A stretch of DNA of 64,000 nt from Pseudomonadota bacterium (GTDB lineage Bacteria; Myxococcota_A; UBA9042; CAIXZC01): contig JBDRIT010000251.1 in the NCBI GenBank assembly GCA_043815665.1, forward strand, positions 2,818-66,817, given 5' to 3'. Within the stretch, counting starts at the first letter, position 1, and each line of letters starts with the position of its first letter. The position numbers and the translations under genes were made by a program. The notes beneath the pieces are model-generated. The model was not told where the DNA came from and did not search any database. It saw nothing but the letters and a program-made list of their open reading frames with translations. Shown in pieces: positions 39,324 through 55,926 of the stretch.

Positions 39324-41057
39324 TCAGAACCTCCATAGGATCGCAGCGTCCCCGAAGCCGCCGGCCTCGACGTCTTCGCTCCCGTCCAGGGTGATCACCT
39401 GCGCCGATGCGCCGCCGGAGAACTCCAGGGAGAGGCCCCCCCAGGGCAGGAGCACCGACAGGCCGGCGCGCAGGGCGCCCCGCCAGGAGAGAGGATCTCC
39501 CTTCACGGACGCCCCGGCCTGCCGGACGAGCCACTGGTGGCCCAGCTCCAGCTCGGCGAAGGGTTCCAGGTAGCGGCCGAAGCCCCTCGGCCACCGCACA
39601 CCGGCGAGCGCACCGACGAAGTAGCCGTCCAGGTGGAACCGCTCCAGGTCCACGCGGTGGGAGGAGCGGGAGTAGGCGAAGGAGAGCCCCATCCAGGCCC
39701 AGCGTCCCAGGGTTCGGGCCAGGCCGAGGCGCGCCCCGTGGGACACCCCGTCGAGGCCCAGTGGCACCGAGCCGACGCGGTACCCTGCGGCCAGGCTCCA
39801 GTTCCGGACCGTCGCGGACCGGGCGAGGACCGCCGCTGCGGGGCGCTGCCGCCCCTCCAGGTAGCCGAGCTGGTAGCCCTGACTCATGGGCACGAGGAAG
39901 AGGCCCCGCCGGAGCTGTTCTCCCTCTGCGGAGCGCTCCGCGATCCGGTTGTCGACGAACTCGAGGGTGGAGACCCGGGCGGTCTCTCCGGAAGGCACCA
40001 GCGCGTCGGCGCCCTGCCGGACCACGTGGTAGCTCCGGCCGCCGGGCAGGCGCAGGCGAACGGGCGCATCGGAGGCCGGGTGAGCGTCCGCGACGCGCAC
40101 TGCGCGGTCGTCCTTGATCCAAATCCGCCCCGGGACGTCGACCTCGAGCCAGGTCGCGTCGCTCCCGACCGAGAGATCCAGGAGGACCCGCTCGTCGTCC
40201 CCGGAGGGTCCCTCGATGAAGTGGTCCGGTCGGGAGTGCGGAGACTCGACGCCGCTCACCGCGGCGGACACGAACGCGACCACCTCTCCGTAGGTGATGC
40301 GCGCGTCCCGGTCCAGATCCGCGCCCCCAGCGAGGGCGCTGCGCACCAGGTAGGAGAAGACGCCGCTGCCCAGGAGGCTGAACTCGAAGGCGCGCACCCC
40401 CTCCGAGGAGGCCAGCAGGAAGCCCGTGTTCGGGAAGCGTCGCGCCGCCCCCTCCTGCTGCAGGGCCTCGGCGAGGGCCTCGGTCACCGGCACCGGGACG
40501 GTGTCGGGACGCCACTTCCCCTCACCTCGGGGGCGGACCAGGTCCCAGGCGTTGCAGGTGTCCACGATCAGGTGGACCGTCACGCCCTGGAGGCGCTCCA
40601 GCATCTTCAGGAGGTCGTCCCGTGTCAGGCGCCCGTCGGGGAGGACGAAGTAGCCGTCCCCCATTGCGTCCACCCCGCCGTGGCCGACGAGGATCAGGAA
40701 CATCTCCTGCGGCGCGTCGGAGCCCTGGATCTCCTCGACCATCTCGTTGAAGCCGCGGAGGATGTCGCTGCGCTGGGGGGCGAGGACCTGCTTCGCCAGC
40801 CCGGGCCAGGTTTCACGGGTCTCGTTGTCGAGGATCGCATGGACATGGGTCCGGGTCGCACGGAACCCGAGGAGCTCCATGTAAGCGAGCGCGTCGTCGT
40901 CCGTGTAGCGCAGGGTGGGGAACTCCTCGTCGCCGACGCCGGGGGAGGAGATGATGAAGAGGTTCACCTCTGACGGCCCCGGCCGGGCGTCTGACGCGGT
41001 CGCCGGAGCGGCGACCACGATGATGACCATCGTGATGGCCAGGGTCATCCATCTCAT
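39324..41057 (-). CDS. Secreted caspase-like (clan CD cysteine peptidase) domain protein with a C-terminal putative outer-membrane beta-barrel.
   Basis: Signal peptide MRWMTLAITMVIIVVAAPATASD. His-Gly and Cys motifs of clan CD (FLILVGHGG … HLIVDTCNAW). The C-terminal ~250 aa have alternating hydrophobic pattern, G/R/Y-rich loops and a terminal ...ILWRF aromatic residue typical of beta-barrel OMPs. Confidence 0.65.
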   Translation of the reverse strand: MRWMTLAITMVIIVVAAPATASDARPGPSEVNLFIISSPGVGDEEFPTLRYTDDDALAYMELLGFRATRTHVHAILDNETRETWPGLAKQVLAPQRSDILRGFNEMVEEIQGSDAPQEMFLILVGHGGVDAMGDGYFVLPDGRLTRDDLLKMLERLQGVTVHLIVDTCNAWDLVRPRGEGKWRPDTVPVPVTEALAEALQQEGAARRFPNTGFLLASSEGVRAFEFSLLGSGVFSYLVRSALAGGADLDRDARITYGEVVAFVSAAVSGVESPHSRPDHFIEGPSGDDERVLLDLSVGSDATWLEVDVPGRIWIKDDRAVRVADAHPASDAPVRLRLPGGRSYHVVRQGADALVPSGETARVSTLEFVDNRIAERSAEGEQLRRGLFLVPMSQGYQLGYLEGRQRPAAAVLARSATVRNWSLAAGYRVGSVPLGLDGVSHGARLGLARTLGRWAWMGLSFAYSRSSHRVDLERFHLDGYFVGALAGVRWPRGFGRYLEPFAELELGHQWLVRQAGASVKGDPLSWRGALRAGLSVLLPWGGLSLEFSGGASAQVITLDGSEDVEAGGFGDAAILWRF

Positions 41058-41920
41058 GGCACGACCTCCCGAACGACGAGGATCCAGGACCCGGACTCGC
41101 AGTCTCGTCGCGTGTCCAGGAGGTCGTCGATGCCCTCCTGTCCACCCGCGGCTGCGTCAGCCCAGTCCGTCCAGGGGATCGGATCGTCGCAGGCGGCCCA
41201 CACCACCTGGTAGGGGCCGGTTGGGTAGTTTATGGAGAGATCCAGGGTCGGCCAGGCCTCCGTCGGGCGGTCAGCAGGCGCGACCCAGCCGGGATCCACG
41301 TGGACCGGGTTGGGCACGATCCAGACGGGCTCGTCCCCGCCGTAGGGCAACGCCACGGCGTGGAGCCAGGCGCCGACGTCCGTGCGCAGCACGTAGGTGA
41401 GGAGCAGGTACTGGTCTGCACCGCAGACGGCGAGACCTTGCGACGCGATCGCCCCCTCGACGACGTGGCTCTCGGAATCCATGCAGTAGGGGCGCAGGTA
41501 GGCTGCGCCGTCCCCGCGGGCGGTCCAGATCCCGGGCTGCTCCACGCCGGGGCGATCCGGCTCCATGCCGGTGGGCAGGAGCACGGCCAGGAGCACCGCC
41601 GCTGCCGCCAGGGCCCAGCGGGCTGCGCGCCGGGCGAACCGTGCGGGCGGATCCCCGGCTCCTGCGAGCGCGGGAGAATAGAAGCGAGTCAGGGATTCGA
41701 AGCTGGAGGCGATCCGAGCCTCCATGGGGCCCAGCACGGCGAACGCATCGGCTCTCTGCGCCAGGGCGAGATCCACCCCGGCGAGGCGATCGTAGCGTCG
41801 GCGTGCCGTCTCGTCCCGCCGCAGGGCAGCGCCGAGGCCCTCCAGGTCCTGGGGAGCCAGGGACAGGAAGGCCGCCTCGAGGCGCTGTTCACAGGTCCCT
41901 TGCTGTTCCATCCGGGGCAC
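41054..41920 (-). CDS. Anti-sigma-factor-like membrane protein: cytoplasmic N-domain, one TM helix, periplasmic C-domain.
   Basis: It sits immediately downstream of the ECF sigma gene with a 3-nt gap. Single hydrophobic helix WALAAAAVLLAVLLP in the middle. The start overlaps the downstream gene by 4 nt. Confidence 0.6.
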   Translation of the reverse strand: MPRMEQQGTCEQRLEAAFLSLAPQDLEGLGAALRRDETARRRYDRLAGVDLALAQRADAFAVLGPMEARIASSFESLTRFYSPALAGAGDPPARFARRAARWALAAAAVLLAVLLPTGMEPDRPGVEQPGIWTARGDGAAYLRPYCMDSESHVVEGAIASQGLAVCGADQYLLLTYVLRTDVGAWLHAVALPYGGDEPVWIVPNPVHVDPGWVAPADRPTEAWPTLDLSINYPTGPYQVVWAACDDPIPWTDWADAAAGGQEGIDDLLDTRRDCESGSWILVVREVVP

Positions 41921-41923
41921 CTC

Positions 41924-42475
41924 TCAATCCTCCACGTCGGTCCCGCCCTCTCGCCGGGTCAGCTGCGCGAGGCGAGACCTCGCTCGTTGCACTGCGCGCT
42001 TGACCCAGTTCCGGTCCACGCCCAGGTGCCGCGCGGTGCTCTCCTGGGTTCGGCGATCGAGCAGGGTCATCAGCACCGCGCTGCGTTCCCGTTCACTCAA
42101 CGATTCGAGCACCTTCTCCACGAGCTCCGCCGCCTCCAGCTGCATCTCCGGCCCCTGCGTGGCGGCCTCCGGTGCGTCGCCGGAGTGCATTCGCGCCGTC
42201 TGCCGCAGGCTCGTCCGGGTCACGTTCCTCGCGATCGCCACGAGATACGTGAAGTACTTGACGGACCCGCTGTAGGCGTCGCGCTGCCGTGGGCTGAACG
42301 CCAGGCAGAACGTCTCCGAGAGCACGTCCATCAGATCAAATCGGCTCAACCGATACCGTGCGACCAGGAACCGCACCAGGTCGTCACGGTAGGTCGAGAA
42401 GACGAGCTCGAGCACCTCCTTGTCCCCTGATCTGAATCGAGACAGCAGATCAGGTCGTTCCCGGAACAGGGACAT
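41924..42475 (-). CDS. ECF-type RNA polymerase sigma-70 family factor.
   Basis: Region 2 (…VLSETFCLAFSPRQRD…YLVAIARNVTRT) and region 4 HTH (…ERERSAVLMTLLDRRTQESTARHLGVDRNWVKRAVQRARSRL). 183 aa. Confidence 0.9.
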   Translation of the reverse strand: MSLFRERPDLLSRFRSGDKEVLELVFSTYRDDLVRFLVARYRLSRFDLMDVLSETFCLAFSPRQRDAYSGSVKYFTYLVAIARNVTRTSLRQTARMHSGDAPEAATQGPEMQLEAAELVEKVLESLSERERSAVLMTLLDRRTQESTARHLGVDRNWVKRAVQRARSRLAQLTRREGGTDVED

Positions 42476-44639: not shown

Positions 44640-46037
44640 ATGATGGATACAACAGTCGTCAAGGTGGGCCGCCCGGTGGCCAAAGGCTCCGGGCGGGATC
44701 TGAACTTCGTCTGCGTGTTCAGCGGGTTGAACGTCGTGGACGCCCGGCCCGTCCTGGTCCGGGACGAGATCACGATGGGTCGGACGATCCTCCCGAACCT
44801 CGGCCTCACCACGCCGGATTCCACCATGAGTCGCCATCACTTCAGACTCCAGCGCAGCGGCGCCGGGGTCGTCATCGAAGATCTCGGGTCGAGCAACGGG
44901 ACCTTCGTGAACCGGCAGGAGATTCACGGCACGTCAAATCTCCACCCCGGGGACGTGATCCGCGCGGGGGAGACCTTGTTCCTCCTCCTGGAGACCCCCC
45001 CGTCTCCTCCTGAAACCCCCCGGGACGACGATTTCGTCACGTGCAACGCCGGCCTGCAGCGCATCCTCGGACAGATCGCACGCGTCGCCGGGTCGGACAT
45101 CAGCGTTCTCCTCCTGGGAGAGACCGGCACGGGGAAGGATGTCCTGGCGCAGCACCTGCATCGCCTGAGCGCGCGGAATGGGCGCTTCGTCCCGGTGAAC
45201 TGTTCGGCGATCCCAGCCACCCTCCTGGAGGCCTCCCTGTTCGGCCATGAGCGAGGGGCCTTCACTGGCGCGGATCGGGCGTCCATCGGGATGTTCCGGA
45301 CCGCCGATCGGGGGACCCTGTTCCTGGACGAGATCGGAGAGATGGAGCCCGGACTTCAGGCCAAGCTCCTCCGAAGCCTCGAGACGCGATCGGTCATCCC
45401 GGTCGGTGCGGCGCGGGAGATCCGGGTCAACGTGCGGATCGTCGCCGCAACGAGCCGGAGTCGTCTGGAGCTGGAGTCCGGTCGCATCCGGGAGGACCTG
45501 CTGGGGCGCCTGGAAGACCTGGTGGTCCAGCTGTCCCCCCTCCGAGAGCGCCGGGAGGACATTCTCTTCTTCGCCGCCAGGGAGATGGGGATCGAGCCGG
45601 GCCAGGCCTTCGGGACCGCGGACGTGGCGGAGGCCCTGCTGCTCTACCCGTGGCCACGGAACGTACGGGAGCTGGTCCGCTCCGTACGCGCCGCGCTCCT
45701 CTTGCACGACGGGTCACCGCCGTTGCGCTGGGAAGACCTGAAGGAGGGGATCCGTCATTTCGGCGGGCTGGCGACGCCGATGCCCGGGGGACGCGCCGGC
45801 GAGTTGCATGCTCCGGTTGACTCGAAGCACCCCTTTGCAACTCCTTTTCGCCGCGATGGAATGGACGAGCTGCGAACAACCACGAAACCCACGGCGCAGC
45901 AGCCGGCCCCATCCCGAGAGACCCTCGAGGCCTTGATTGCCAAATGTGGTGGCAACGTCTCGGCCCTGGCCCGTCAGCTGGGCAAGGATCGGAAGCAGAT
46001 CTACCGCTGGCTCGAGCGCTACGGCCTGAAGGCCTGA
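44640..46037 (+). CDS. Sigma-54-dependent transcriptional activator with N-terminal FHA domain (FHA - AAA+ sigma-54 interaction domain - Fis-type HTH).
   Basis: FHA signature ([10 protein letters not shown]…SRHHFRL…[12 protein letters not shown]). Walker [15 protein letters not shown] motif, ESELFGHE-like [13 protein letters not shown], and a C-terminal HTH (…[23 protein letters not shown]). Confidence 0.9.
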
Positions 46038-46397
46038 TCAACCCTGCAAGAGCGTGGTTTTTACCTTCCAGAGGACCGGCATCAACTTGGCGAGGACCCA
46101 GCCGAGGGCGCGCAGGGCCGGTCCGTCCAGGGGCAGGGAGCGCCCACGGCGGATCGCGTGCACCGCGACGCCGCGCACATCGGAGACCGGGACGGGCGGA
46201 TCTTCCGACGTGCAGCCGTCACCCCGGGTCGTCACGAACCCCTCGCTGACCCGGAGCACGCGGTGCAGGGCGACGTCATCTCCCCGGGGGACCAGGACGA
46301 TCTCGCCGACCCGCGGCAGGCGCCGGGGCAGGGGACGGATCATCACCGGGGTGCCGTCCGGGAGGAAGGGGCGCATGCTCCCACCGCGAGCGATCAT
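46038..46397 (-). CDS. Sec11/SipW-type (S26B, Ser-His) signal-peptidase-like protein, 119 aa. Last gene of the peptide-modification cassette.
   Basis: Box B GGSMRPFLPDG contains the catalytic Ser. Box D GEIVLV…DDVALHRVLRV has His where bacterial type-I signal peptidases have Lys, the same pattern as Sec11 (…PIVHRVLR). ATG 46397 follows immediately after the radical SAM stop. The first 86 codons of the 205-codon ORF are read-through. Confidence 0.65.
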   Translation of the reverse strand: MIARGGSMRPFLPDGTPVMIRPLPRRLPRVGEIVLVPRGDDVALHRVLRVSEGFVTTRGDGCTSEDPPVPVSDVRGVAVHAIRRGRSLPLDGPALRALGWVLAKLMPVLWKVKTTLLQG

Positions 46398-47422
46398 CGG
46401 TCGCCTTCCCCGGAGTCGGGGTCCAGGCGTCGCCAGAGGGCCGTGCGCTGGCAGATTGATGGCGCCGGCCTGGCGGGATCTCCGGTCTCCCGCAGGGACC
46501 GGGCCGGGCACGCGTAGCACCAGGGCCGGTCCGCGCACTCCATGCAGCCCGTGGACGTGCCCCAGGTGAGACTCCGGAGGGGTCGGAGCGACGGAGGGTC
46601 CCGCCACAGGTCGGCGAGGCGCTCGTCCCGCACGTTTCCGAGGGTCTCGGGCCACTCGAGGCAGGGGCGTACGTTGCCGTCGGGGCCGACGTAGAGGGAG
46701 AGCCGCCCGGCGAGGCAGACGGGCTCGTCGGCCCGCACCTCCCTGCGGGGTGGGCGGTCACCGAAGGCAGTCTCCCATTGCTCCTGCCTGGAGGACTCGC
46801 CGACCCAGAGCCCATCGAGGGGGTAGCCCTCGAAGCAGCCGATGTCCTTGAGTTCGTTGATCGCTACGGTGCGGATCCCCTGGGCGAGGAGCCCGCTGCG
46901 GACCGTCGAGAAGTCCTCCTCGAAACCCTGGAGCAGGGTCACCACGGCCTCCACCCGGACCCCCAGCGCCTGCAGACGCAGGATCGTGGCGAGGCTGCGG
47001 TCGAAGGAGCCGGGGAGGCGGGTCACCTCATCGTGGACCAACCGACGGTGGCTGTAGAGGCTCACATGGACCGTGCGCACCCCGAGCTTCGCCAGGGTGT
47101 CGCAGTCCTCGGGCCGGCACAGGGTCCCCGAGGTCTTCACCAGCACCATGAATCCCCGACGCCGGGCCTCCCCGACGATGTCGAGGAAGTCCGGACGGGT
47201 GAAGACCTCCCCGCCGCTGAACAGGAGACTCATCACCCCCATGTCGGCGAGCTGTTCGAGGACATCGACGAGGTCGGCGAGGGACAGCTCCTTGGGCGCG
47301 TCGCCGCCGAGGTAGCAGTGTCGGCACCGCAGGGGGCAGCGCCAGGTCGGGTCGATGTGTGCATGGAACAGACGCCCGTGACGAAGATATCGCTGGTAGA
47401 GCCAGGCTACGTGGTCGGACAC
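46394..47422 (-). CDS. Radical SAM / SPASM-domain peptide-modifying maturase.
   Basis: CxxxCxxC cluster WRCPLRCRHCY near the N-terminus. C-terminal auxiliary-cluster Cys pattern (…VCLAGR…GNVRPCLEW…GCMECADRPWCYACPA). 342 aa. Confidence 0.9.
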   Translation of the reverse strand: MSDHVAWLYQRYLRHGRLFHAHIDPTWRCPLRCRHCYLGGDAPKELSLADLVDVLEQLADMGVMSLLFSGGEVFTRPDFLDIVGEARRRGFMVLVKTSGTLCRPEDCDTLAKLGVRTVHVSLYSHRRLVHDEVTRLPGSFDRSLATILRLQALGVRVEAVVTLLQGFEEDFSTVRSGLLAQGIRTVAINELKDIGCFEGYPLDGLWVGESSRQEQWETAFGDRPPRREVRADEPVCLAGRLSLYVGPDGNVRPCLEWPETLGNVRDERLADLWRDPPSLRPLRSLTWGTSTGCMECADRPWCYACPARSLRETGDPARPAPSICQRTALWRRLDPDSGEGDR

Positions 47423-48222
47423 GTCAACCTCCGGAAGAGCGCCCGATCCAGATCCTTGAGGGAGACGTCCATCATCCGACAGGGGACCTCGGCGACGATC
47501 TTTATGAGGCGGTCCATCAGCAGGGCAGAGAGGGTGGGGGAGCCGGGGAAGAGGACGGCGTTGCGGATCGCCAGGCGGAGGGCTTCGGCGACGGGCAGGG
47601 CGGGTCCCAGGGTGGTCCTCCCGCCTCGACGGAGGAACAGGAGGCCACCCAGGGGGAGGGTCCCCGTCCCCGTAGCGTTGACCCCCCCGGCGCGCCAGAG
47701 GCCGTCGTCACCGGGCACCAGCGTGGTGAGGTCGTCCGTGATCTTCCTGTCGGGGTCGAGCCGGTTGACGACGGTGCTCTTTCCTGTCGCGTGGGGCGCA
47801 GGGAAGGTCCAGGCGCGGCCGCTCTGCGCCGATGTGGACGCGTGGAGGACCACGCCGAGACCCTCCTCCAGCAGGGCGGCGACCCCGGTCGCAGCCAGGG
47901 TCAGGGTCAGCTGGTCCATCATCTCGCCCGGCCGCAGCGAGGGATCCAGTGTCAGTCCACATCCTCCGGAGTCGATGTACGCGACGGCACCTCGCGCCTG
48001 GAACGACAATCGCCCCCGCTCCTCTACGAATCTCGGTTCGCTCGACGCGGGCTCCGAGGGACCGATCACCACGTCGAGGATGCGATGGACGCGGCGCGGC
48101 CACGGGTCGTATCGAAGCGTCTTGGGAGGCGCCGCCGCCCGGACGAGCTTGTCCAGCCGGATGGGATCCAATGCGGGATCGAAGTGGGCTTCGAAGCTGA
48201 CCGGGCCGAAGGCGAGGTTCAT
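47407..48222 (-). CDS. HPr kinase C-terminal-domain-related P-loop protein (HprK-related kinase of RiPP-type cassettes).
   Basis: GVVLHASTSAQSGRAWTFPAPHATGKSTVVNRL matches the HprK C-domain core (…LHAS…G…GxSGxGKST). The start is set at ATG 48222 (MNLAFGPVSFEAHF…). The upstream 53 codons of the long ORF overlap the precursor ORF in another frame. Confidence 0.65.
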   Translation of the reverse strand: MNLAFGPVSFEAHFDPALDPIRLDKLVRAAAPPKTLRYDPWPRRVHRILDVVIGPSEPASSEPRFVEERGRLSFQARGAVAYIDSGGCGLTLDPSLRPGEMMDQLTLTLAATGVAALLEEGLGVVLHASTSAQSGRAWTFPAPHATGKSTVVNRLDPDRKITDDLTTLVPGDDGLWRAGGVNATGTGTLPLGGLLFLRRGGRTTLGPALPVAEALRLAIRNAVLFPGSPTLSALLMDRLIKIVAEVPCRMMDVSLKDLDRALFRRLTCPTT

Positions 48223-48265
48223 CTGCGGAGGTGGCGGTTTGGGGCTGGCGGGATGGGTCCCCGGA

Positions 48266-48415
48266 TCAGCCAGTGGGGGTCTGCCAGCCGCAGCCCCCGC
48301 CGCTGAGCGCCTGGAACAAGCATCCCGACTGGAGGACGTTCTTCTCGAAGCCCTCGCGGACCTCGACCACCGGCTGCACATAGGCCTTCTTCATCTGCTT
48401 GGCGTCATTCATCAT
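48266..48415 (-). CDS. Putative RiPP precursor peptide (49 aa): MMNDAKQMKKAYVQPVVEVREGFEKNVLQSGCLFQALSGGGCGWQTPTG.
   Basis: A perfect AGGAGG lies 8 nt upstream of ATGATG (minus strand). The peptide has a charged leader-like N-half and a Gly/Cys/Ser/Thr-containing C-half. It sits directly upstream of the kinase-like, rSAM/SPASM and peptidase genes on the same strand, with a 43-nt spacer to the next gene. Confidence 0.55.
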   Translation of the reverse strand: MMNDAKQMKKAYVQPVVEVREGFEKNVLQSGCLFQALSGGGCGWQTPTG

Positions 48416-48471
48416 GGAGTGACCTCCTACGTGGGGACAGTGTATCGAACCATCCCCGGGTGTCAATCGAC

Positions 48472-51400
48472 TCAGCGGACCAGCACCAGGTAACCTGCCC
48501 CGTTGGTCCCGACCATCATGTCCGGGTGTCCGTCGCCGGTGAAGTCACTGAGCGGGGCGATACGGAGGCCGCCGAAGTCCAGGTTGCCGGGCTCGAAGGG
48601 ATCCTCGATGGTCAGATCCAGCTCCTGGAAGCTGCCCATACCGTGGATCCCCGGGAGGTTGTGCCGGACATAGACGGAGCCGAAGAAGGAGAACCCGTTG
48701 AAGTCGCCGTACACCAGGTCTCCCGAGCACTCGGGCTGGATCGGTGAGTCGTCGAAGTTTCCGAGGAGCCCGATGGACTGGAAGTTGCCCTGGATGATGG
48801 TCCCCGCAGAGCCGACCCAGGCGCTCCCCGCAGCCGTGACCGCGCCGATCGTCAAGGTGGTCCCGATGGCTCCGCCGATCGCGTCCCCGCGGAAGAGATA
48901 GATCGACAGGCCGTTGGAGAGGGCCGCCTGCAAGTGGGCGCCGATCACCTCGGGGATCCCGTCACAGTCCAGGTCCTCGCCGAGGATCTGTCCGAAGAAC
49001 CAGTCCGCCGCCGCCAGGCTGCCCTGGGGGCGCAGCCGCACCGCTGCGGCGTCCTCGCTCCCGCTCCCGTCCAGGGTCGACGAGAGAGAGATCGCAGCGG
49101 TGCTGACCATCGCCCGTCCCCGGACGACGAAGGCTGCGGATGGCCCCGTGTACTGGCTGATGACGATGTCGTCGTACTGGGTCCCCTCGCCGTCCCCGTC
49201 CGGGAGGACGTTGCCGACCCCGCTGGCGCTGATGCCGAACCAGTCGTTGGCGGTGCCGCCGACCTGGCTGATCTTGAGGATCAGGGAGGCCGCCTGGTCC
49301 CCGGCGTCCTCGAGGTCGATCTCCAGGGGCGCGACGCCCCAGTTGGCGTTGCCGGGCACGACGTAGACCGTGTTCTTCTGGGGCGCGGCGACGACGATGT
49401 CGTCGATGGGGATCTGACCGTTCAGATCGCCATTGAAGTTGCCGGCGCCGGCGATGGGGACGAAGTTGACCCAGAGGAGCCCGGTCGTCCCGAAGACCAG
49501 GGAGACCTCCGGCGAGGTGCTGAGCACCCCGGAGGCCTTTCCGAGGTAGATGCGCACCCGCGTCCTGTCGGTGCCGTCGGCGTCCTTGTAGGAGACCACG
49601 GCGACGTCGTCGTAGCCGTCGCCGTTCACGTCCCCCACACCCGCCAGATCCAGGCCGACCTGGCTCTGGACGCCGTCGAAGAGACATTGCGTGAGCGCAT
49701 CCTGCGAGAGATCGATGGACGCGGGCGGATCCTCCCGCCCCTGCATGAGGCAGAAGCCGTTCTCGCCGTAAGCGCCGAGGAGCAGGTCTTCGAGGTCGTC
49801 GCCGTTGATGTCACCGGCGCGCACCGGGGTTGCGTCCATGTTGCCGTCGGTGTAGGAGCCGCGGAGCACCTCGGTGTATTGGAGGCGCACGGCGTTGGTG
49901 GATTTGGAGTTCGCCGTGCTGAACGGGGAGACGTTGCCCACATCGTCGTAGGCCAGCACTCCGAAGTAGAACATCGACGAGGGATCGACGCCCGTGACGA
50001 ATCGGCACGGGTCCGCTGGCGCACGGTTGTCGGGACCGGCGACGACAAAGGCTTCGAGCGCCCCGGGGGTCGCCGGCGCCGGTGGCTCAGCGTTCTGGGT
50101 CAGACCCGAGAGGTCGCAGGCCTGGTCGAAGTTCACGGGGGTGATGGGCGCGGTGGAGAAACGGACCTCGTAGGAGGCCGCAGCACCTCCGGCGTTGCCG
50201 TCGTCGCCGACGGCTGACCACTTGAGGGTCACCGCGGGTCGCCGCGGGTTGACGTCCGCCGCGGGGTTGATGGTCTGGAGGACCACGCCGGCTGGCGGGG
50301 TCACGTCCACGTTGAGGGTCAGGGTCGTCGCTCCGTTGTTCCCGGCCGCATCGGTGGCGGTCGCGGTGAGGGTCCGCTGAGCGGCCTCCCCCAGGGTGAC
50401 GTCGGAGGGCCAGGAGTAGGCGAAGGGCGCTCCGGTCATGGACGTCTCGCCGAGGGTTGTCGGCGGGCCACCCGTGTCGGTGGTCAGAGTCACCTCGCCG
50501 CCAGTGAGGTTGTCGCCGGTGACGTTCACCGCGACGGTGAGCTGGCAGCCACCCGCACCGGGGTTCTTGTCGTTGGCCTGGTTGAGGATGCTCGTGGAGG
50601 GCGTCGGTGCAGTGAAGGCAACCACGGGGAGCGTGAGGTCCACGCTGTAGGACCAGTCACCCGTGGTGTCCCCGGTCTCTGCACCGCCGACGAGGAGTCG
50701 GGCCTCGAAGGCGACGCTGTCCCCGTCATCCAGGGTCAGCGGGAACGCCACGGAGCTGCCTGCGGTGACTGCGAGGGTGGCCTCCACCTGACCGTCCTTG
50801 TACAGCCGCACCTGATCCACCGCACCACAGCCCGTGGTGAAGGTCGCCGTGAGGTCGGTCGCGATGGTCGCACAGCTCTGGCCGGGCGGGTCGCAGTCGG
50901 CCGTGTTGTACCAGCCGGAGGCGGGCGCGTCGATGAAGCTCACCTGGCACGCGGTGAAGGTGAGGGTCAGGTTCGCCGAGAGGACGGAGGTGTTTCCGAC
51001 CCCGTCGACGATCACGACCTGCACCTGTCTGTACTCGATCTCCGCGTCGACCGTCCCGACGGTGATGAGCTCGCTGACGGTGACGAGGGACTCGTCGGGC
51101 AGGGTCCCCGTCTTGGCGGGGACGCCACCGGCGCACCCGGTGAAGGATGCGTCCGGGCATTTGGCCAGCTTGATCGTCCAGCCCGCTGCGCCGGACGCCT
51201 CGAACTCCGTCAGGAACTGGAAGCCCGGGATCGTCAGCGACGCGTCGTCGCCATCGGTGAAGCCGACCGCTGGTGCAGGCTGGTTGAGGGTCGCCGATGG
51301 CGGGCTGCGGTCCACGAAGATGTACTCGGGTGACGTGACGGCAAGCGCCTCGTTGTTCGCGTCGTCCCGGACCCAGCCGCGGAGCTGGTAGGCCCCGTCC

Positions 51401-54400
51401 TGGGCGAGGATGCCGCTGAAGGTGACCTGCCCCTGTGCGTTCGGTGCCCCGGAAGAGAGCTCGACCCAGGTGCCCCCCACGTTCCGCTCCAGGTGGACGT
51501 CGTTCCCGTCCGTGCCGCTGGCCACGAGGTGTGTGTCCGGCGAGGAGCCCTGGATCAGGGGCGAGCTGGCCGGCGCTGTGAACGAGAGCACCGGCACCGC
51601 CGTGTCGACGAAGACCTCGATCCCGTATGGCGTGCTCACGTTGCCGACCTGGTCGATGGCCAGGATCTGGAGGGTGTTCAGCCCTTCGAAGAGTGCCAGC
51701 GCCAGATCCACCTGGGAGCCGGCCATGCTCACCTCCTCGATGAGGATCCCGTTGTCCCAGACCTTCATGGTGCCGGTCTCTGCGCTGGTGAGGGTGACCT
51801 CTGCGATGTACGTCGACGGCGCGGCGTCGACCTCCGCCTGGTTGAGGGTCCCGAGGGGCGGCAGGGTGTCGGATGGGAAGGCCACACCCGAGATCACCGG
51901 GGCGACGATGTCCAGCCAGTAGTGGCGGTCCTGCTTCGTGTAGTTCGGCGTGTTGGTGGAGAGGACCCAGGTCCCCGTGTTGGAGAGGGCCTCGGCGATC
52001 ATTCGATGGTACCCGGACGGGAGCGCCGCGACTTCGGCCGCCGTGAGCTGCACGAACACGCTGCCGCCGCCGTGGTTCACGGACTTGACCACCCGGAACT
52101 TCACCGGGCCGTCAGTGGTCTCACAGAGAGCTGCACCCTGGGCGGCGAGGGTCGGGTGCGCGGAGCAGATCCGCAGGGGCGCCGTCTCCGACGAGAAGAG
52201 TTCCGCCGGCTGGGACTTGGCGTCGACTTTATGGGCGCCGTTCTTCCAGGGGAACATGCACTTCTTCGACCCGTCGACCGGCTTGCAGATGCCCGTGGCG
52301 GAGCAGTCGCCGTTGTCCACGCAGAGATCGAAGGAGACGTAGTCGGAGCCCTCGAGCCTCACCTGAGTGGTCGTGAGGAAGAACTGGACTGCGAAGATCA
52401 AGCTGTCCGTGTTGCCCGCAGCGTCGGAGACCGACACCACGATCTGGTGCACACCCTCCCCGAAAGTCATCTGCGGGAACACGACCTCTCCGGTCTGCCC
52501 GTCGGGGATCCCCTCGCCAAGGATCACCGAGGTCGCCTCGGGAGCGCCGATCTCCGGCGTGATCAGCAGGTCCACAGACTGGCCCGCCTCGAGGCCCTGA
52601 ACCCCCACGATGAGGGTGTACTGGTAGCCCTCGGCAGCGGGGTCCTCATCGAGGCTGGCCGGCATCAACTCAAAGTCCGGCTGCATGAATCCGGTGATCA
52701 CCGGTGCCGTGCGGTCGACGATGACGGTCACGGCGGTCGAGTCTGCAGACTGTCCGGCGAGGTCCTCCACCGAAGCGCCGAGGGTGCACGTGGCGCCGTC
52801 CGCGAGCGCTACGCCTGGCCAGGACACCGCATCTCCAGCGACGGCTCCGGGGATCGTCGTCGGGGCGCCACAGTCCACCGTCAGCGACGCCGCGCTGCCG
52901 TTCTCTGCGTTGGTGGTCACCGCGGTGACCACCAGGCTGCAACCGGGGAGGCCGGCCGCACAGAGGTTCGAGGCCAGGTTGAGGATCGCACCATCCTCGG
53001 GCGCGGTCAGGGCGATGGTCGGGGTGCCGTCCTTGAGGAGCACCGAGCGGGTGCCGGAGTACCCGACCTCCGCGTGGGAGGGATGGATCGCAGAAGCCTG
53101 GATCTTCACGGGGACGCCAGGGGTGAGGCCGTCGAGGGAGAACTGGTAGAGGCCGCCCGGGCCCGCCGTCTGATTCCCGAACTCCGCACCGTCCACGAAG
53201 AGGGTGACCGTCGCGTCCTCGAGGGGGATCGCACCGTCGGAGGAGGTCACGGACAGGGTGACCGGGACCGGCTGGCTCGAGACCACGATGTTCTTGGTGG
53301 GGCTGGTGAAGACGACCTTGGGTGCGTCCACGGCGAAGGAGAAGGTTGTCTGGGCCGGCACCGTGACGTGCCCCGCGGCGTCCGTCACCGTGAGGTCGAT
53401 CGTGTTGGTGCCGGGGGTGATGGTGAGGCCGTCGAAGTTCACTTCACCCGTGTCGGCGTCCGGGAAGAGACAGAGCGCCGCCTCGCCGTTGAAGGAGAGG
53501 CAGACCTCAACGAGATCCGGGTGGGCCTCGCCGGTGACCATGGCGTTGACGGCCACCTGGTTGCCGAGCTGATCCGCGTCGGTGTCCGGACAACTCGTCG
53601 GATCACAGATCGCGCCGTCCTGGGGCGTCAGGACGAAGATCTGTGGCCACAAGGCGTCGAGCTCCAGGGACACCTCGGTGAGGCTGCCCGGGTTCGCCGA
53701 GGCGGCGTTGCCGAAGCCGTCCATCGCGGCCGCAGTGAGGGTGTAGATCCCTTCGTCGAGCAGGGAGAGGTCCTCCATGACGCTGAACCCGAGCAGGGTC
53801 GCCTGGACCTCCGTGGTCCACGCCTCGGCGCCGCCCTGGGTGAGGGACAGGGTCACGATCTGGCCTTTCAGGAAGAGAGTCGCCCCCACGACCGAGAAGG
53901 CCTCCGCCGGGACGATCTCGCCGTCTTCTGGGTTGGTGAGGATCAGGAGGGGCGCGGGGAGGCCCACCGTGAGGGAGATCTCGGGAGACACCACCGGCGG
54001 GGCGTTGTTGTCCCTGGCGCGGCAGATGACCTGGCTCCCCACCAGCGCGGTGTTGATCTGGACATCCATGGTGTACTGCCCGTCCGGGGCCGCCGCGGAC
54101 ACGGTGAACATCCCCCCGTCGCGCCAGAGGGACCCGGACTGGTTCTTCCGGTACTGGACCTGGAGGACCGTCCCTGCGTCGGCGAGGGGCGCGTACACCA
54201 GGAAGGAGGTGTCCATGACGGACAGGGTCCCCGGCACGGTGTCAGCCGCCGCCAGGAGGGTGGCGCCGGACAGGGGTGAGAGGATCATCACGTTGGCCGG
54301 GGCCAGGAGCGAAACGACGTTGACGGACGCGGTCGCCAGGGCTCCGCAGCACGCGTCGGATGCGGCGACGGCGATCTCGTGCAGACCATCCGAGGCCAGG

Positions 54401-55548
54401 GTGATGGTGTCGACGGTGAAGACGCCGCCAGGCGCGGAGGTCACTGCGACCTCCACCCCGTCGATGGTGACCGTGATCTCGTCATCCGGGCCGAGGCCGG
54501 TGGCCAGGCCGTCAAGGACGAGCTGGATGCCGTTCTCCGGAACACCGTCCAGATCGTCGCCCAGGTTGACCGTGGTCGGGGACGGGGACGTGATCTCCAG
54601 GGTCGGGGGCACCGTGTCCAGGGTGTAGTCGAGCGCCGTGGACTCCGTCCGGGACTCGTCGGCGCTGTCGGCGACGTAGGCCGTGACGTTGGTCGCCTGG
54701 CAGTCGAGGTCGTCCACGCTGGCGGCGACGGTGATCTGGAGCTCCGCTTCACCGCCGACCAGGTTCACCTGCTCCGAGGCGCCCGTGTCCGTCTCCAGCC
54801 ATGCCGTGTCGCAGTCGGTTCCGCCGTTGGTGACCGTGAAGGTCGCCTGGAACCCGTCCATGTCCGGATCCCCGTCGACTGACAGACAGCTCTGGTTGCT
54901 CGGGGCCAGGGTTACGCCGCAGCTCCCCGTGTCCACGCAGACGGTCTTCGTGACGGTGATCAGATCCTCGGCAGAGATCACCATCTCGTGGCAATCGGGG
55001 TCCGTCGCGTTGGTGAGATGGACCATCGAGAAGCTGAAGATGTCGCCGGGGAGGTCCTGGGTGGCCACGGTGTTGCCGTCGATGTCCAGGGAGATCGTCG
55101 TCCCTGCCGGGACGTTCAGGGTCGTCACCTGGATGTCGACTTCGAGGGCCGGGGTCAGCGGGTAGAGGTCGTCCGAGGTTTCTTCGTTCTTGACGAGGTC
55201 CACCTGGTCGACGTCGGTCCCGACGCAGCCCGCGACGGGGGTCATGAGGCAGAAGGACAGCTCCGCCGGTGGGGGAGGCGGGACGTCCACGTCTGGCTCC
55301 ACCTCGTCGGGGACATCGGGGACGTCGGGGACGTCAGGGACGTCGGGGACATCGGAGACGTCCGGGACGTCCCCGGTGAACTCGTCCAGGACGTCCGTGA
55401 GGTCGAAGTCCACGACATCAGCGTCCCCCTCGAGATCAACCGAACTGTCCGGGACGTCCGTGATCGGGAGGGGCGGTGAGCTGTCCGGGCAGCCGATGAC
55501 GAGGGTCAGCATCATCGCCAGAACCGCTGCGATCGTGACTCGATTCAT
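48472..55548 (-). CDS. Giant surface lipoprotein (2358 aa). Order of parts: lipoprotein signal, (DVP)n acidic linker, many Ig-like/beta-sandwich segments, C-terminal FG-GAP/VCBS-type beta-propeller repeats.
   Basis: MNRVTIAAVLAMMLTLVIGC is a lipoprotein signal with GGAGG 8 nt upstream. FG-GAP-like motifs GDINGDDLEDLLLGAY, GDVNGDGYDDVAVVSY and FTGDGHPDMMVG lie near the C-terminus. Continuous 7-kb ORF. Confidence 0.8.
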   Translation of the reverse strand: MNRVTIAAVLAMMLTLVIGCPDSSPPLPITDVPDSSVDLEGDADVVDFDLTDVLDEFTGDVPDVSDVPDVPDVPDVPDVPDEVEPDVDVPPPPPAELSFCLMTPVAGCVGTDVDQVDLVKNEETSDDLYPLTPALEVDIQVTTLNVPAGTTISLDIDGNTVATQDLPGDIFSFSMVHLTNATDPDCHEMVISAEDLITVTKTVCVDTGSCGVTLAPSNQSCLSVDGDPDMDGFQATFTVTNGGTDCDTAWLETDTGASEQVNLVGGEAELQITVAASVDDLDCQATNVTAYVADSADESRTESTALDYTLDTVPPTLEITSPSPTTVNLGDDLDGVPENGIQLVLDGLATGLGPDDEITVTIDGVEVAVTSAPGGVFTVDTITLASDGLHEIAVAASDACCGALATASVNVVSLLAPANVMILSPLSGATLLAAADTVPGTLSVMDTSFLVYAPLADAGTVLQVQYRKNQSGSLWRDGGMFTVSAAAPDGQYTMDVQINTALVGSQVICRARDNNAPPVVSPEISLTVGLPAPLLILTNPEDGEIVPAEAFSVVGATLFLKGQIVTLSLTQGGAEAWTTEVQATLLGFSVMEDLSLLDEGIYTLTAAAMDGFGNAASANPGSLTEVSLELDALWPQIFVLTPQDGAICDPTSCPDTDADQLGNQVAVNAMVTGEAHPDLVEVCLSFNGEAALCLFPDADTGEVNFDGLTITPGTNTIDLTVTDAAGHVTVPAQTTFSFAVDAPKVVFTSPTKNIVVSSQPVPVTLSVTSSDGAIPLEDATVTLFVDGAEFGNQTAGPGGLYQFSLDGLTPGVPVKIQASAIHPSHAEVGYSGTRSVLLKDGTPTIALTAPEDGAILNLASNLCAAGLPGCSLVVTAVTTNAENGSAASLTVDCGAPTTIPGAVAGDAVSWPGVALADGATCTLGASVEDLAGQSADSTAVTVIVDRTAPVITGFMQPDFELMPASLDEDPAAEGYQYTLIVGVQGLEAGQSVDLLITPEIGAPEATSVILGEGIPDGQTGEVVFPQMTFGEGVHQIVVSVSDAAGNTDSLIFAVQFFLTTTQVRLEGSDYVSFDLCVDNGDCSATGICKPVDGSKKCMFPWKNGAHKVDAKSQPAELFSSETAPLRICSAHPTLAAQGAALCETTDGPVKFRVVKSVNHGGGSVFVQLTAAEVAALPSGYHRMIAEALSNTGTWVLSTNTPNYTKQDRHYWLDIVAPVISGVAFPSDTLPPLGTLNQAEVDAAPSTYIAEVTLTSAETGTMKVWDNGILIEEVSMAGSQVDLALALFEGLNTLQILAIDQVGNVSTPYGIEVFVDTAVPVLSFTAPASSPLIQGSSPDTHLVASGTDGNDVHLERNVGGTWVELSSGAPNAQGQVTFSGILAQDGAYQLRGWVRDDANNEALAVTSPEYIFVDRSPPSATLNQPAPAVGFTDGDDASLTIPGFQFLTEFEASGAAGWTIKLAKCPDASFTGCAGGVPAKTGTLPDESLVTVSELITVGTVDAEIEYRQVQVVIVDGVGNTSVLSANLTLTFTACQVSFIDAPASGWYNTADCDPPGQSCATIATDLTATFTTGCGAVDQVRLYKDGQVEATLAVTAGSSVAFPLTLDDGDSVAFEARLLVGGAETGDTTGDWSYSVDLTLPVVAFTAPTPSTSILNQANDKNPGAGGCQLTVAVNVTGDNLTGGEVTLTTDTGGPPTTLGETSMTGAPFAYSWPSDVTLGEAAQRTLTATATDAAGNNGATTLTLNVDVTPPAGVVLQTINPAADVNPRRPAVTLKWSAVGDDGNAGGAAASYEVRFSTAPITPVNFDQACDLSGLTQNAEPPAPATPGALEAFVVAGPDNRAPADPCRFVTGVDPSSMFYFGVLAYDDVGNVSPFSTANSKSTNAVRLQYTEVLRGSYTDGNMDATPVRAGDINGDDLEDLLLGAYGENGFCLMQGREDPPASIDLSQDALTQCLFDGVQSQVGLDLAGVGDVNGDGYDDVAVVSYKDADGTDRTRVRIYLGKASGVLSTSPEVSLVFGTTGLLWVNFVPIAGAGNFNGDLNGQIPIDDIVVAAPQKNTVYVVPGNANWGVAPLEIDLEDAGDQAASLILKISQVGGTANDWFGISASGVGNVLPDGDGEGTQYDDIVISQYTGPSAAFVVRGRAMVSTAAISLSSTLDGSGSEDAAAVRLRPQGSLAAADWFFGQILGEDLDCDGIPEVIGAHLQAALSNGLSIYLFRGDAIGGAIGTTLTIGAVTAAGSAWVGSAGTIIQGNFQSIGLLGNFDDSPIQPECSGDLVYGDFNGFSFFGSVYVRHNLPGIHGMGSFQELDLTIEDPFEPGNLDFGGLRIAPLSDFTGDGHPDMMVGTNGAGYLVLVR
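55300..55380 (-). repeat. Short tandem 9-bp repeat (GGACGTCGG / GGACATCGG on the plus strand) encoding a (DVP)n / DVSDVPDVPDVPDVPDVPDE acidic linker.
   Basis: Direct reading: gacatcggg gacgtcggg gacgtcagg gacgtcggg gacatcgga gacgtccgg gacgtcc. Confidence 0.8.
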
Positions 55549-55647
55549 GGTGGTACCTCCGAATGGGCGGGCTTTCCCGGGTGGTAGAGACCTCGACCGC
55601 CTTTGCGCCCTGTCAGGTCGGGTTGTCTGCATCACAAGTCTAAGCGT

Positions 55648-55926
55648 TCATTTGACATTCGCCAAGAGGACTCCGCGCGCAGTCAGAGTTCCCAGGAAAT
55701 GATCGACATCCGAAGCGGCGCGTTCATGGGACACCTCGTAGCCCTCGTCGAGCCTGACCACGAGGTCGCGCGCCGTCTCGGCGCCGGCCTCCACGGCCTC
55801 CCAGAGAAAGACCGCCGTCTCGTTCCCAAGGACGATGAGGTCCCCCTCGGGCGCCAGGATGAAGATCTCTTCACCGACGCGTCGGACGCCGACGTTTTCG
55901 GCCTTATGGAATGTGGTCAATGGCAT
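55648..55926 (-). CDS. PqqD-family protein (RiPP recognition element / peptide chaperone), 92 aa.
   Basis: …VGEEIFILAPEGDLIVLGNETAVFLWEAVEAGAETARDLVVRLDEGYEVSHERAASDVDHFLGTLTARGVLL… matches the PqqD pattern (x-then-LN-ETAxxIWxLxDGxxTxxEIxxxLxEEYxV…DVxxFLxxLxxxGLL). Confidence 0.7.
   Translation of the reverse strand: MPLTTFHKAENVGVRRVGEEIFILAPEGDLIVLGNETAVFLWEAVEAGAETARDLVVRLDEGYEVSHERAASDVDHFLGTLTARGVLLANVK

What the first reader, a model, noticed from the sequence alone, without database searches (positions are those of the whole stretch)
48266..48415. Candidate precursor peptide MMNDAKQMKKAYVQPVVEVREGFEKNVLQSGCLFQALSGGGCGWQTPTG
A small ORF not explained by any long gene. A canonical Shine-Dalgarno (AGGAGG, 8-nt spacing) is rare in this window and argues for real translation. 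A TTGACA hexamer lies ~45 nt upstream, but its -10 partner is weak. The peptide has no hydrophobic signal core. The leader is rich in K/E/V. The core has two Cys flanking SGGG, plus Trp and Thr near the C-terminus, the residue types usually targeted by rSAM crosslinking enzymes. The Gly-rich stretch could be the leader-cleavage region for the cognate peptidase.
Basis: seen in the sequence. Interest (0 to 1): 0.7.

Follow-up and report, generated by a model that had tools for sequence, protein, structure and literature searches.

The report
New radical-SAM peptide precursor gene
The 49-codon ORF is a real, conserved gene that almost certainly encodes the precursor of a ribosomally made, enzyme-modified peptide from uncultured myxobacteria; no curated family covers it and its chemistry is unknown.

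Summary
The ORF exists as described, on the minus strand (48415 to 48266). It has a strong Shine-Dalgarno site and the only sigma-70-like promoter in 2.9 kb. It is a real gene. Nineteen distinct 48-50 aa homologues were found. In all 10 close loci examined, and in the 3 contexts of one distant homologue, it lies just upstream of the same genes. The leader shows dN/dS of 0.13, with third-codon positions varying in 21 of 24 codons. The -35, -10 and SD elements are kept in all 10 loci.

The context is a RiPP cassette: precursor, then a ScmC/HPr-kinase-like P-loop protein (true start 48222, not 48381), a radical SAM/SPASM enzyme and an S24/S26-type serine peptidase. A PqqD-family gene (55648-55926) lies 7 kb upstream, across a 2387-aa surface lipoprotein gene. 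This block persists where the flanks differ.

The peptide has a near-invariant leader (KKxYxxPxxEVxEGFExNVLxSG). The core has two invariant Cys, 9-10 residues apart around a variable loop, and usually ends in GWxTP(S/T)G.

The "SGGG" stretch is variable loop, not a cleavage site.

The cassette resembles the SynChlorMet cassette but falls far below its curated cut-offs. The crosslink chemistry is not determined.

The parts
48266..48415 (-). Precursor peptide gene (49 aa plus stop). Leader is roughly codons 1-31 (48415-48323). Core is codons 32-49 (48322-48269), with invariant Cys32 (48322-48320) and Cys42 (48292-48290).
   Evidence: Annotated in the NCBI MAG as ABIK09_21160. 19 distinct homologues found. 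dN/dS is 0.13 in leader codons 9-32.
48439..48466 (-). Sigma-70-type promoter: TTGACA (48466-48461), 16-nt spacer, TACACT (48444-48439).
   Evidence: 10 of 12 matches, the only site in 2.9 kb, 0.2 expected; both hexamers conserved in 10 loci. Function is inferred.
48423..48428 (-). Shine-Dalgarno AGGAGG, 7 nt before the ATG.
47407..48222 (-). ScmC-like / HPr-kinase-like P-loop protein (271 aa), with invariant FPAPHxTGKST and DDL motifs.
46394..47422 (-). Radical SAM/SPASM enzyme (342 aa). It has C29xxxC33xxC36 plus 8 further conserved Cys. Its start overlaps the ScmC-like gene by 16 nt.
   Evidence: Radical_SAM 80.7 bits, SPASM 36 bits; no curated NCBIfam cut-off reached; best PDB match is SkfB, E 1e-13; conserved Cys.
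46038..46397 (-). Short S24/S26-type serine peptidase (119 aa) with GGSMRP, ALHRV and TRGD..D motifs. Its ATG overlaps the rSAM stop codon (ATGA). Putative leader peptidase.
   Evidence: Peptidase_S24 at 17.3 bits here; the L008 orthologue scores 29.7, above the 23.3 threshold. TIGR02228 archaeal-type signal peptidase I, E 4.8e-4; invariant motifs.
55648..55926 (-). PqqD-family protein (92 aa), the putative leader-binding (RRE) partner. It has its own AGGAGG at 55938-55933.
   Evidence: PF05402 at 45.8 bits, threshold 23.4; weak ScmD hit (TIGR04248); conserved at the same position in L014 and L015.
48472..55635 (-). Giant Big_13/FG-GAP surface lipoprotein (up to 2387 aa; true start uncertain) lying between the PqqD and precursor genes. 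It is part of the conserved block. Its functional link is unproven.
   Evidence: always directly upstream of the peptide, including the distant L011 clade.
44640..46037 (+). Convergent FHA-domain sigma-54 enhancer-binding protein. It is kept next to the cassette in most loci. A regulatory link is not shown.
   Evidence: No sigma-54 promoter consensus was found near the cassette.

Best explanation
Window 48415-48266 (minus strand) encodes the precursor (A-peptide) of a previously uncurated family of radical-SAM-modified RiPPs. The family occurs in a narrow clade of uncultured Myxococcota-like bacteria.

Shown: the gene is real and under purifying selection. It has its own conserved promoter and a strong SD. 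It is always followed by three tightly coupled genes: a ScmC/HprK-like P-loop protein, a radical SAM/SPASM enzyme and an S24/S26-type peptidase. A PqqD-family gene belongs to the same conserved block.

Inferred mechanism:
(1) The conserved leader (KKxYxxPxxEVxEGFExNVLxSG) is bound by the PqqD-family protein and presented to the rSAM/SPASM enzyme.
(2) That enzyme, with a full complement of auxiliary-cluster cysteines, installs one or two intramolecular crosslinks in the 18-19-residue core. The most likely products are thioether (sactionine or ranthionine type) bonds from the two invariant Cys (Cys32, Cys42).
(3) The ScmC-like protein uses ATP for a tailoring or scaffolding step. Ser/Thr phosphorylation is possible, by analogy with HprK homologues in lasso clusters.
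(4) The SipW/Sec11-like Ser-His peptidase removes the leader at or next to the invariant Ser30-Gly31-Cys32 junction.

The loop between the Cys is free to vary, as expected for a RiPP core.
For: Reality of the gene:
- The exact peptide is annotated in a MAG.
- A profile search gave 14 peptide clusters of 48-50 aa and no unrelated hits.
- A full HMMER scan of 1.84 billion representatives added one distant 49-aa relative, P0029, at E 1.4e-4.
- In the leader, dN/dS is 0.13 and third codon positions vary in 21 of 24 codons, against 7 of 24 for positions 1 and 2.
- Promoter and SD are conserved in 10 loci.

Context:
- All 9 homologous loci carry the small ORF directly upstream of the ScmC-like and rSAM/SPASM genes; the 8 that extend far enough also carry the peptidase gene.
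- The distant peptide P0029 sits in the same arrangement, although its ScmC-like protein is only 29% identical and its rSAM 38% identical.

Families:
- Radical_SAM plus SPASM, with CxxxCxxC and 8 further conserved Cys.
- PqqD at 45.8 bits.
- S24/S26 motifs.
- P-loop and DD motifs with a PEPCK/HprK-like fold.

Peptide anatomy: invariant leader, two invariant Cys and a variable loop with dN 0.39, against 0.08 in the leader.

Block integrity: the block from PqqD to the peptidase is retained in L015, where both flanks differ.

Precedent: HprK homologues phosphorylate precursor peptides in lasso clusters (PMC8498205).

Hint for thioether chemistry: the best solved-structure match of the rSAM enzyme is SkfB, which I recall as a thioether-forming enzyme. 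An StsB sactipeptide-maturase model also aligns along the full length.
Against: - No modification, cleavage or product has been observed. The crosslink type is a guess, because the rSAM enzyme is far below every curated family cut-off (best 110 bits against 500).
- No exporter or immunity gene is visible in the block.
- The PqqD gene is 7 kb away, across a giant gene. Its pairing with this peptide rests on synteny within one clade (L014, L015) and could not be checked in the distant clade.
- Most homologous loci come from closely related genomes, so part of the synteny may be inherited rather than selected.
- Trp44 and Thr46 are missing in P0026, so they cannot be universal crosslink partners.
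Confidence: 0.8

Rival explanations
1. The crosslinked peptide is not a free secreted natural product. It is a small modified subunit or ligand made for the giant Big/FG-GAP surface lipoprotein encoded directly upstream. The closest analogy is QhpC, the rSAM-crosslinked gamma subunit of quinohemoprotein amine dehydrogenase.
For: The giant gene lies between the PqqD and precursor genes, and it directly precedes the precursor in every locus. This includes the distant L011 clade, where the FG-GAP region is 39% identical. In L015 the PqqD gene overlaps the giant gene start by 4 nt, and the block is kept while the flanks change. No exporter or immunity gene is present. The QhpC/QhpD analogy comes from my own knowledge.
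Against: The precursor has its own conserved promoter. The loop between the Cys is variable, which is unusual for a structural subunit or cofactor. The peptide has no signal peptide and the cluster has no dedicated exporter, while the giant protein is a lipoprotein with a signal sequence. Adjacency in related genomes may simply be inherited.
Confidence: 0.12
2. It is a precursor of a peptide-derived redox cofactor (PQQ or mycofactocin type) that stays inside the cell.
For: The PqqD plus rSAM/SPASM plus small peptide architecture matches those systems, and PqqE is among the better rSAM hits. No exporter is present. A peroxiredoxin gene is nearby in most loci.
Against: Cofactor precursors have invariant reactive cores, whereas here the core loop is the most variable part. 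There is no match to PqqA, MftA or any other curated peptide family. No partner oxidoreductases are present. The AhpC gene is absent from L015, so it is not part of the block.
Confidence: 0.05
3. It is a small unmodified protein or an upstream regulatory ORF (translational coupling or attenuation) for the enzyme genes, not an enzyme substrate.
For: It is short, it lies 5' of the operon, and it has a strong SD.
Against: The amino-acid sequence, rather than mere translation, is conserved. There are 18 invariant residues including two Cys, dN/dS is 0.13, and the motif is retained in a relative whose partner enzymes are only 29-38% identical. A 43-nt gap separates it from the next gene. The small hairpin in that gap is no more stable than shuffled sequence.
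Confidence: 0.03

Closest known systems
SynChlorMet (SCM) cassette: ScmC, ScmD (PqqD-like) and ScmE/ScmF (two rSAM/SPASM enzymes); NCBIfam TIGR04248-04251, Pfam PF27840
   Same: It has the same set of component types: an HprK-like 'ScmC' protein, a PqqD-family protein and a PqqE-like rSAM/SPASM enzyme. Weak but specific hits go to TIGR04249 (ScmC), TIGR04248 (ScmD) and TIGR04250/04251. Precomputed PF27840 hits are found on the homologues.
   Different: All scores are far below the equivalog cut-offs: 16-26 against 125, 18.7 against 100, and 84 or 60 against 400. There is one rSAM enzyme rather than two. An S24/S26-type peptidase is added. The PqqD gene is separated from the rest by a 7-kb surface-protein gene. 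A clear precursor peptide is present; as I recall the TIGRFAMs description, no precursor was identified for the SCM cassette (not checked here).
Sactipeptides and ranthipeptides (e.g. subtilosin/AlbA, SKF/SkfB, SCIFF/CteB, StsB)
   Same: These also pair a small precursor carrying Cys residues in the core with an rSAM/SPASM maturase that has auxiliary clusters. The best solved-structure match is SkfB, and CteB is also hit. StsB and AlbA models align.
   Different: No curated sacti/ranthi maturase or precursor model is reached. The maturase has no fused N-terminal RRE; the CxxxCxxC motif starts at residue 29. Only two Cys are present. The accessory HprK-like protein and the S26-type peptidase are not typical of these classes. 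The thioether itself is untested.
HPr-kinase homologues of lasso-peptide clusters (paeninodin-type kinases)
   Same: An HprK/PEPCK-fold P-loop protein is encoded together with a PqqD-family protein and a precursor peptide. Those kinases phosphorylate a Ser of the linear precursor (PMC8498205).
   Different: There is no lasso cyclase or B-protease here. The C-terminal residue is Gly, Ala or Asn, not Ser. One family member (P0026) has no Ser or Thr in its tail.
PQQ (PqqA/D/E) and mycofactocin systems
   Same: Both combine a PqqD chaperone, an rSAM/SPASM enzyme and a short peptide. The leader, with a basic stretch followed by P-x-h-x-V-x-x-G-F-E, recalls PqqA's KP...G(F/L)EV. That resemblance is from my own recollection only.
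   Different: There is no match to the PqqA or MftA models. The core is Cys-based and variable. No PqqB/C or MftD/E/F equivalents are present.

Membership tests
rSAM/SPASM-dependent RiPP precursor (generic class) | Short ORF, co-oriented with and adjacent to an rSAM/SPASM gene, conserved across loci | tested here: met
   Seen in all 10 close loci and in the 3 contexts of the distant peptide P0029.
rSAM/SPASM-dependent RiPP precursor (generic class) | Conserved leader with a more variable core; purifying selection on the protein sequence | tested here: met
   Leader codons 9-32 have dN/dS 0.13 (dN 0.08). Loop codons 33-41 have dN 0.39. 18 columns are invariant.
rSAM/SPASM-dependent RiPP precursor (generic class) | Leader-recognition element (PqqD/RRE) in the cluster | tested here: met
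   PF05402 at 45.8 bits, window 55648-55926. Conserved in L014 and L015. It lies 7 kb away, and binding is not shown.
rSAM/SPASM-dependent RiPP precursor (generic class) | Peptide is actually modified and cleaved | not testable with these tools
   Needs heterologous expression and mass spectrometry.
SynChlorMet cassette (TIGR04248-04251) | ScmC equivalog (at least 125 bits to TIGR04249) | tested here: not met
   16.4 bits in the window and 26.3 bits in L011. Only weak or faint PF27840 hits on close homologues; an unmarked (stronger) hit in the L011 clade.
SynChlorMet cassette (TIGR04248-04251) | ScmD equivalog (at least 100 bits to TIGR04248) | tested here: not met
   18.7 bits.
SynChlorMet cassette (TIGR04248-04251) | Two rSAM/SPASM proteins, ScmE and ScmF (at least 400 bits each) | tested here: not met
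   A single rSAM gene, scoring 84.2 and 60.6 bits.
Sactipeptide / ranthipeptide | Cys donors in the core and a maturase with a full SPASM cysteine set | tested here: met
   Cys32 and Cys42 are invariant. The enzyme has CxxxCxxC plus C196, C236, C254, C293, C296, C302, C305 and C324, all conserved.
Sactipeptide / ranthipeptide | Match to a curated maturase or precursor family (AlbA, SkfB, StsB, SCIFF and others) | tested here: not met
   All are far below their cut-offs. No peptide family is hit.
Sactipeptide / ranthipeptide | S-to-C-alpha, -beta or -gamma thioether bonds in the product | not testable with these tools
   Needs MS/MS or NMR of the product.
HPr kinase-like peptide kinases | P-loop (GxxGxGKS/T-like) and DD motifs; HprK/PEPCK fold | tested here: inconclusive
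Type I signal peptidase, ER/archaeal (SipW/Sec11) type, S26B | Conserved boxes: GSMxP (Ser), HR(V/I) (His) and (T)xGDxN..D | tested here: inconclusive
   GxSMxP, ALHRV and TRGD(G/A/N)C..D are invariant or nearly so in 9 orthologues. HMM scores are marginal: TIGR02228 gives 20 bits against a 51.85 cut-off, and Pfam S24 gives 17-30 bits against 23.3. There is no N-terminal membrane anchor. The box definitions come from my own knowledge.
PqqA / MftA cofactor precursors | Match to the curated precursor models | tested here: not met
   No NCBIfam or Pfam hit for any of the 14 peptides, even at E up to 10.

The most novel reading that the evidence does not exclude
This may be a new RiPP class with two unusual properties. 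First, the chemistry, set by a divergent rSAM/SPASM enzyme plus an ATP-using ScmC/HprK-like protein, may be a crosslink or tailoring not yet described. Second, the product may be functionally tied to the giant Big/FG-GAP surface lipoprotein that is embedded between the PqqD and precursor genes in every locus. It could be a crosslinked ligand, a small subunit or a maturation factor for a cell-surface beta-propeller, by analogy with QhpC in quinohemoprotein amine dehydrogenase. It would also supply the first recognisable precursor for ScmC-type (SynChlorMet-like) cassettes.
Probability: 0.15. Interest if true: 0.8.

Novelty: new variant of a known kind. Interest (0 to 1): 0.58.

Why it matters
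The finding defines a previously uncurated precursor family (18 invariant residues, a Cys-x9-10-Cys core) for a divergent ScmC/PqqD/rSAM-SPASM cassette. ScmC-type cassettes have been catalogued from genomes, but as far as I recall without an identified substrate. A clear precursor with a known promoter and a compact gene set makes the system directly testable by co-expression in E. coli and mass spectrometry. The enzyme reaches no curated family cut-off, so the product could carry a new crosslink. The conserved embedding of a 2,300-aa surface protein inside a RiPP block is unusual and unexplained.

Tried and rejected
- Extended kinase ORF starting at 48381: rejected.
- 'SGGG' as the leader-cleavage region: rejected, because it is not conserved.
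- Small hairpin just after the precursor stop codon as an attenuator or stabiliser. It recurs at the same position in several loci, but its folding energies are no better than shuffles (z from -1.3 to +1.4). RNAalifold found no consensus structure. Not supported.
- Sigma-54 promoter that would link the cassette to the adjacent FHA/sigma-54 activator: no TGGCAC-N5-TTGCA-like site near the cassette, and the window has fewer matches than chance.
- Additional precursor copies in the window: none by motif search or tblastn.
- Wider distribution. The GTDB species-representative scan found one genome, an uncultured Myxococcales MAG. The metagenome scan found only 2 loci. The family is rare.
- P0028 (692 aa, repetitive) from the representative search is a spurious low-complexity hit.
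- Curated peptide families: no hits.
- Literature. Nothing in the held library covers SynChlorMet/ScmC or an HprK-like plus rSAM/SPASM RiPP. Haft and Basu 2011 (PMC3133131) is not held.
- Sequence search of the ScmC-like protein against the PDB: no meaningful hit.

Full report
**1. The observation**

The ORF is real and lies at the stated coordinates, on the minus strand. The ATG is at 48415, followed by 49 codons and a TGA at 48268-48266, and it encodes exactly MMNDAKQMKKAYVQPVVEVREGFEKNVLQSGCLFQALSGGGCGWQTPTG.

AGGAGG lies at 48428-48423, 7 nt before the ATG. The bare hexamer is common in this GC-rich window: 114 copies against 52 expected. AGGAGG-N7-ATG, however, occurs only twice, against 0.44 expected.

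TTGACA (48466-48461) is followed after 16 nt by TACACT (48444-48439). This matches 10 of 12 consensus positions. It is the only promoter-like site on either strand in 45900-48800, where shuffles give 0.2.

**2. Is it a gene?**

Yes. The exact peptide is already a called protein in an NCBI MAG (ABIK09_21160).

I looked up nine contigs that encode homologues of the neighbouring 271-aa protein (52-87% identity). All carry a 48-50-aa ORF in the same place (alignment). A profile search of 5.8 billion proteins returned 14 peptide clusters, all 48-50 aa, and nothing else.

A codon-level comparison of the 10 loci gives dN/dS of 0.13 for leader codons 9-32. Third codon positions vary in 21 of 24 codons, against 7 of 24 for each of positions 1 and 2. 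That is the signature of selection on the encoded protein.

The -35, -10 and SD elements are conserved in all 10 loci, while the spacers between them drift.

All 11 homologues of the downstream protein begin at the conserved MxLAFGPV N-terminus, which corresponds to ATG 48222. In L001 the frame is closed upstream of it. The in-frame extension to 48381 in this window is accidental.

**3. Surroundings**

On the minus strand, the precursor is followed by three genes.

- **Radical SAM/SPASM enzyme (46394-47422, 342 aa).** Radical_SAM scores 80.7 bits and SPASM 36 bits. It has C29xxxC33xxC36 and eight further conserved Cys. No curated NCBIfam cut-off is approached. The best solved relatives are SkfB and PqqE.
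- **Peptidase (46038-46397, 119 aa).** Its ATG overlaps the rSAM stop codon. It has invariant GxSMxP, ALHRV and TRGD..D motifs. Matches to Peptidase_S24 and archaeal-type signal peptidase I are marginal. By my own knowledge, these motifs correspond to the Ser/His/Asp boxes of SipW/Sec11-type peptidases.

The three enzyme genes overlap one another, by 16 nt and by 4 nt.

While inspecting the region upstream of the giant gene I found a 92-aa PqqD-family gene at 55648-55926 (PF05402, 45.8 bits against a 23.4 threshold). It has its own AGGAGG. It is separated from the precursor by the 2387-aa Big_13/FG-GAP lipoprotein gene (48472-55635).

The PqqD gene occupies the same position in L014 and L015 (60% identity). 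In L015 both flanks differ from the window. The 1450-aa PPC-domain gene is absent on one side, and the AhpC, ECF-sigma and neighbouring genes are absent on the other. The block from PqqD through giant protein, precursor, ScmC-like, rSAM and peptidase to the convergent FHA/sigma-54 activator is still intact. There the PqqD gene overlaps the giant gene start by 4 nt.

**4. A distant relative**

A word-index-free HMMER scan of 1.84 billion representative proteins with the peptide profile found only one further true relative. This is P0029, MNDLQNRKPYESPVVVVDSGFEKEVLSSGPCLPIPDALGECTGYSTPSA, at E 1.4e-4.

Its three contexts again read giant protein, then peptide, then ScmC (an unmarked, stronger PF27840 hit), then rSAM. 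Its ScmC-like protein is only 29% identical to the window's, and its rSAM enzyme is 38% identical. Its FG-GAP region is 39% identical.

The peptide-enzyme association therefore survives substantial divergence. This is the strongest comparative argument that the peptide is the substrate.

**5. Anatomy of the peptide**

- **Leader.** M-x-N/S-x4-5, then KK-x-Y-x-x-P-x-h-E-V-(R/H)-E-G-F-E-(K/R)-N-V-L-(Q/A)-S-G. Eighteen columns are invariant.
- **Core.** Cys32, then a 9-10-residue variable loop (dN 0.39, against 0.08 in the leader), then Cys42. The tail is usually G-W-x-T-P-(S/T/V)-(G/A).
- **Exceptions.** Two members of one subclade have tails CPVVGEN and CPWVGDTG. The distant member has C-T-G-Y-S-T-P-S-A.

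Only the two Cys and the SG that precedes Cys32 are universal.

**6. Most likely mechanism (inferred)**

- PqqD binds the leader and presents the peptide to the rSAM/SPASM enzyme.
- The rSAM/SPASM enzyme makes one or two intramolecular crosslinks. I favour thioethers from the two invariant Cys, for three reasons: invariant donors, a full SPASM cysteine set, and SkfB, StsB, AlbA and CteB among the nearest relatives. My confidence in that specific chemistry is only about 0.4.
- The ScmC-like P-loop protein adds an ATP-dependent step. HprK homologues phosphorylate linear lasso precursors (PMC8498205). Here, however, no Ser or Thr outside the invariant Ser30 is universal.
- The Ser-His peptidase removes the leader near Ser30-Gly31-Cys32.

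None of these steps has been observed.

**7. Comparison with known systems**

The component set (ScmC-like, PqqD-like, PqqE-like rSAM/SPASM) is that of the SynChlorMet cassette. Every equivalog cut-off is missed by a wide margin, there is one rSAM enzyme instead of two, and a peptidase is added. It works like an SCM-type cassette but is not a member of the curated families.

It is not a curated sactipeptide, ranthipeptide, PQQ, mycofactocin or lasso system. No paper in the held library describes such a cluster.

**8. Distribution**

The family is rare. One GTDB species representative carries it, an uncultured Myxococcales MAG. The JGI metagenome scan found 2 loci. The ScmC-like protein has 13 protein clusters.

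**9. Verdict**

This is a new variant of a known kind: an rSAM/SPASM RiPP whose precursor family is uncurated and whose accessory set is unusual. Interest is moderate to good for RiPP specialists. The unexplained embedding of a giant surface lipoprotein inside the conserved block is the feature most likely to lead somewhere unexpected.

Noticed in passing
window 55648-55926 (-): A PqqD-family (RRE) gene with its own AGGAGG lies 7 kb upstream of the precursor, directly before the giant lipoprotein gene. It is conserved in L014 and L015, and in L015 it overlaps the giant gene start by 4 nt.
   Followed up: yes
window 48472-55635 (-); L011 1-1119: A giant Big_13/FG-GAP surface lipoprotein (lipobox LVIGC near the N-terminus) always lies directly upstream of the precursor, even in the distant clade (39% identity). 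It is embedded between the PqqD gene and the rest of the RiPP cassette. The functional link is unexplained.
   Followed up: partly
window 60420-61274 (-); L015 1578-2432: A Memo-family protein (PF01875, 129.5 bits). In L015 it abuts the PqqD gene directly (stop and start share position 2432). In the window, a 1450-aa Cys-rich PPC-domain protein (55951-60303) is inserted between them. Whether Memo belongs to the cassette is unknown.
   Followed up: partly
window 44640-46037 (+): An FHA-domain sigma-54 enhancer-binding protein converges on the peptidase gene. It is kept next to the cassette in L002-L004, L006, L007, L014 and L015; only a remnant is left in L008. No sigma-54 promoter consensus was found near the cassette.
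   Followed up: partly
window 48236-48268 (-) and the equivalent positions in L001-L009: A short GC hairpin (for example GGGAC-CCN-GTCCC) recurs just after the precursor stop codon, with some apparently compensatory changes. It is no more stable than shuffled sequence, and RNAalifold finds no consensus structure.
   Followed up: yes
window 37877-39322 (-) and 55951-60303 (-): Two very Cys-rich secreted proteins carry repeated CGxDGCGGxCGxC-like motifs. One is 481 aa with no Pfam hit. The other is 1450 aa with C-terminal PPC domains.
   Followed up: no
window 41924-42475 (-), 41054-41920 (-), 39324-41057 (-): An ECF-type sigma factor (Sigma70_r4_2) is followed by a 288-aa and a 577-aa protein with no Pfam hits. 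This trio is syntenic in L003, L006, L007 and L014 but absent from L015, so it is not part of the cassette.
   Followed up: partly
whole window: The AGGAGG hexamer is about twice as frequent as in dinucleotide-preserving shuffles (114 against 52, both strands). The bare hexamer is therefore not evidence of a ribosome-binding site in this genome.
   Followed up: partly
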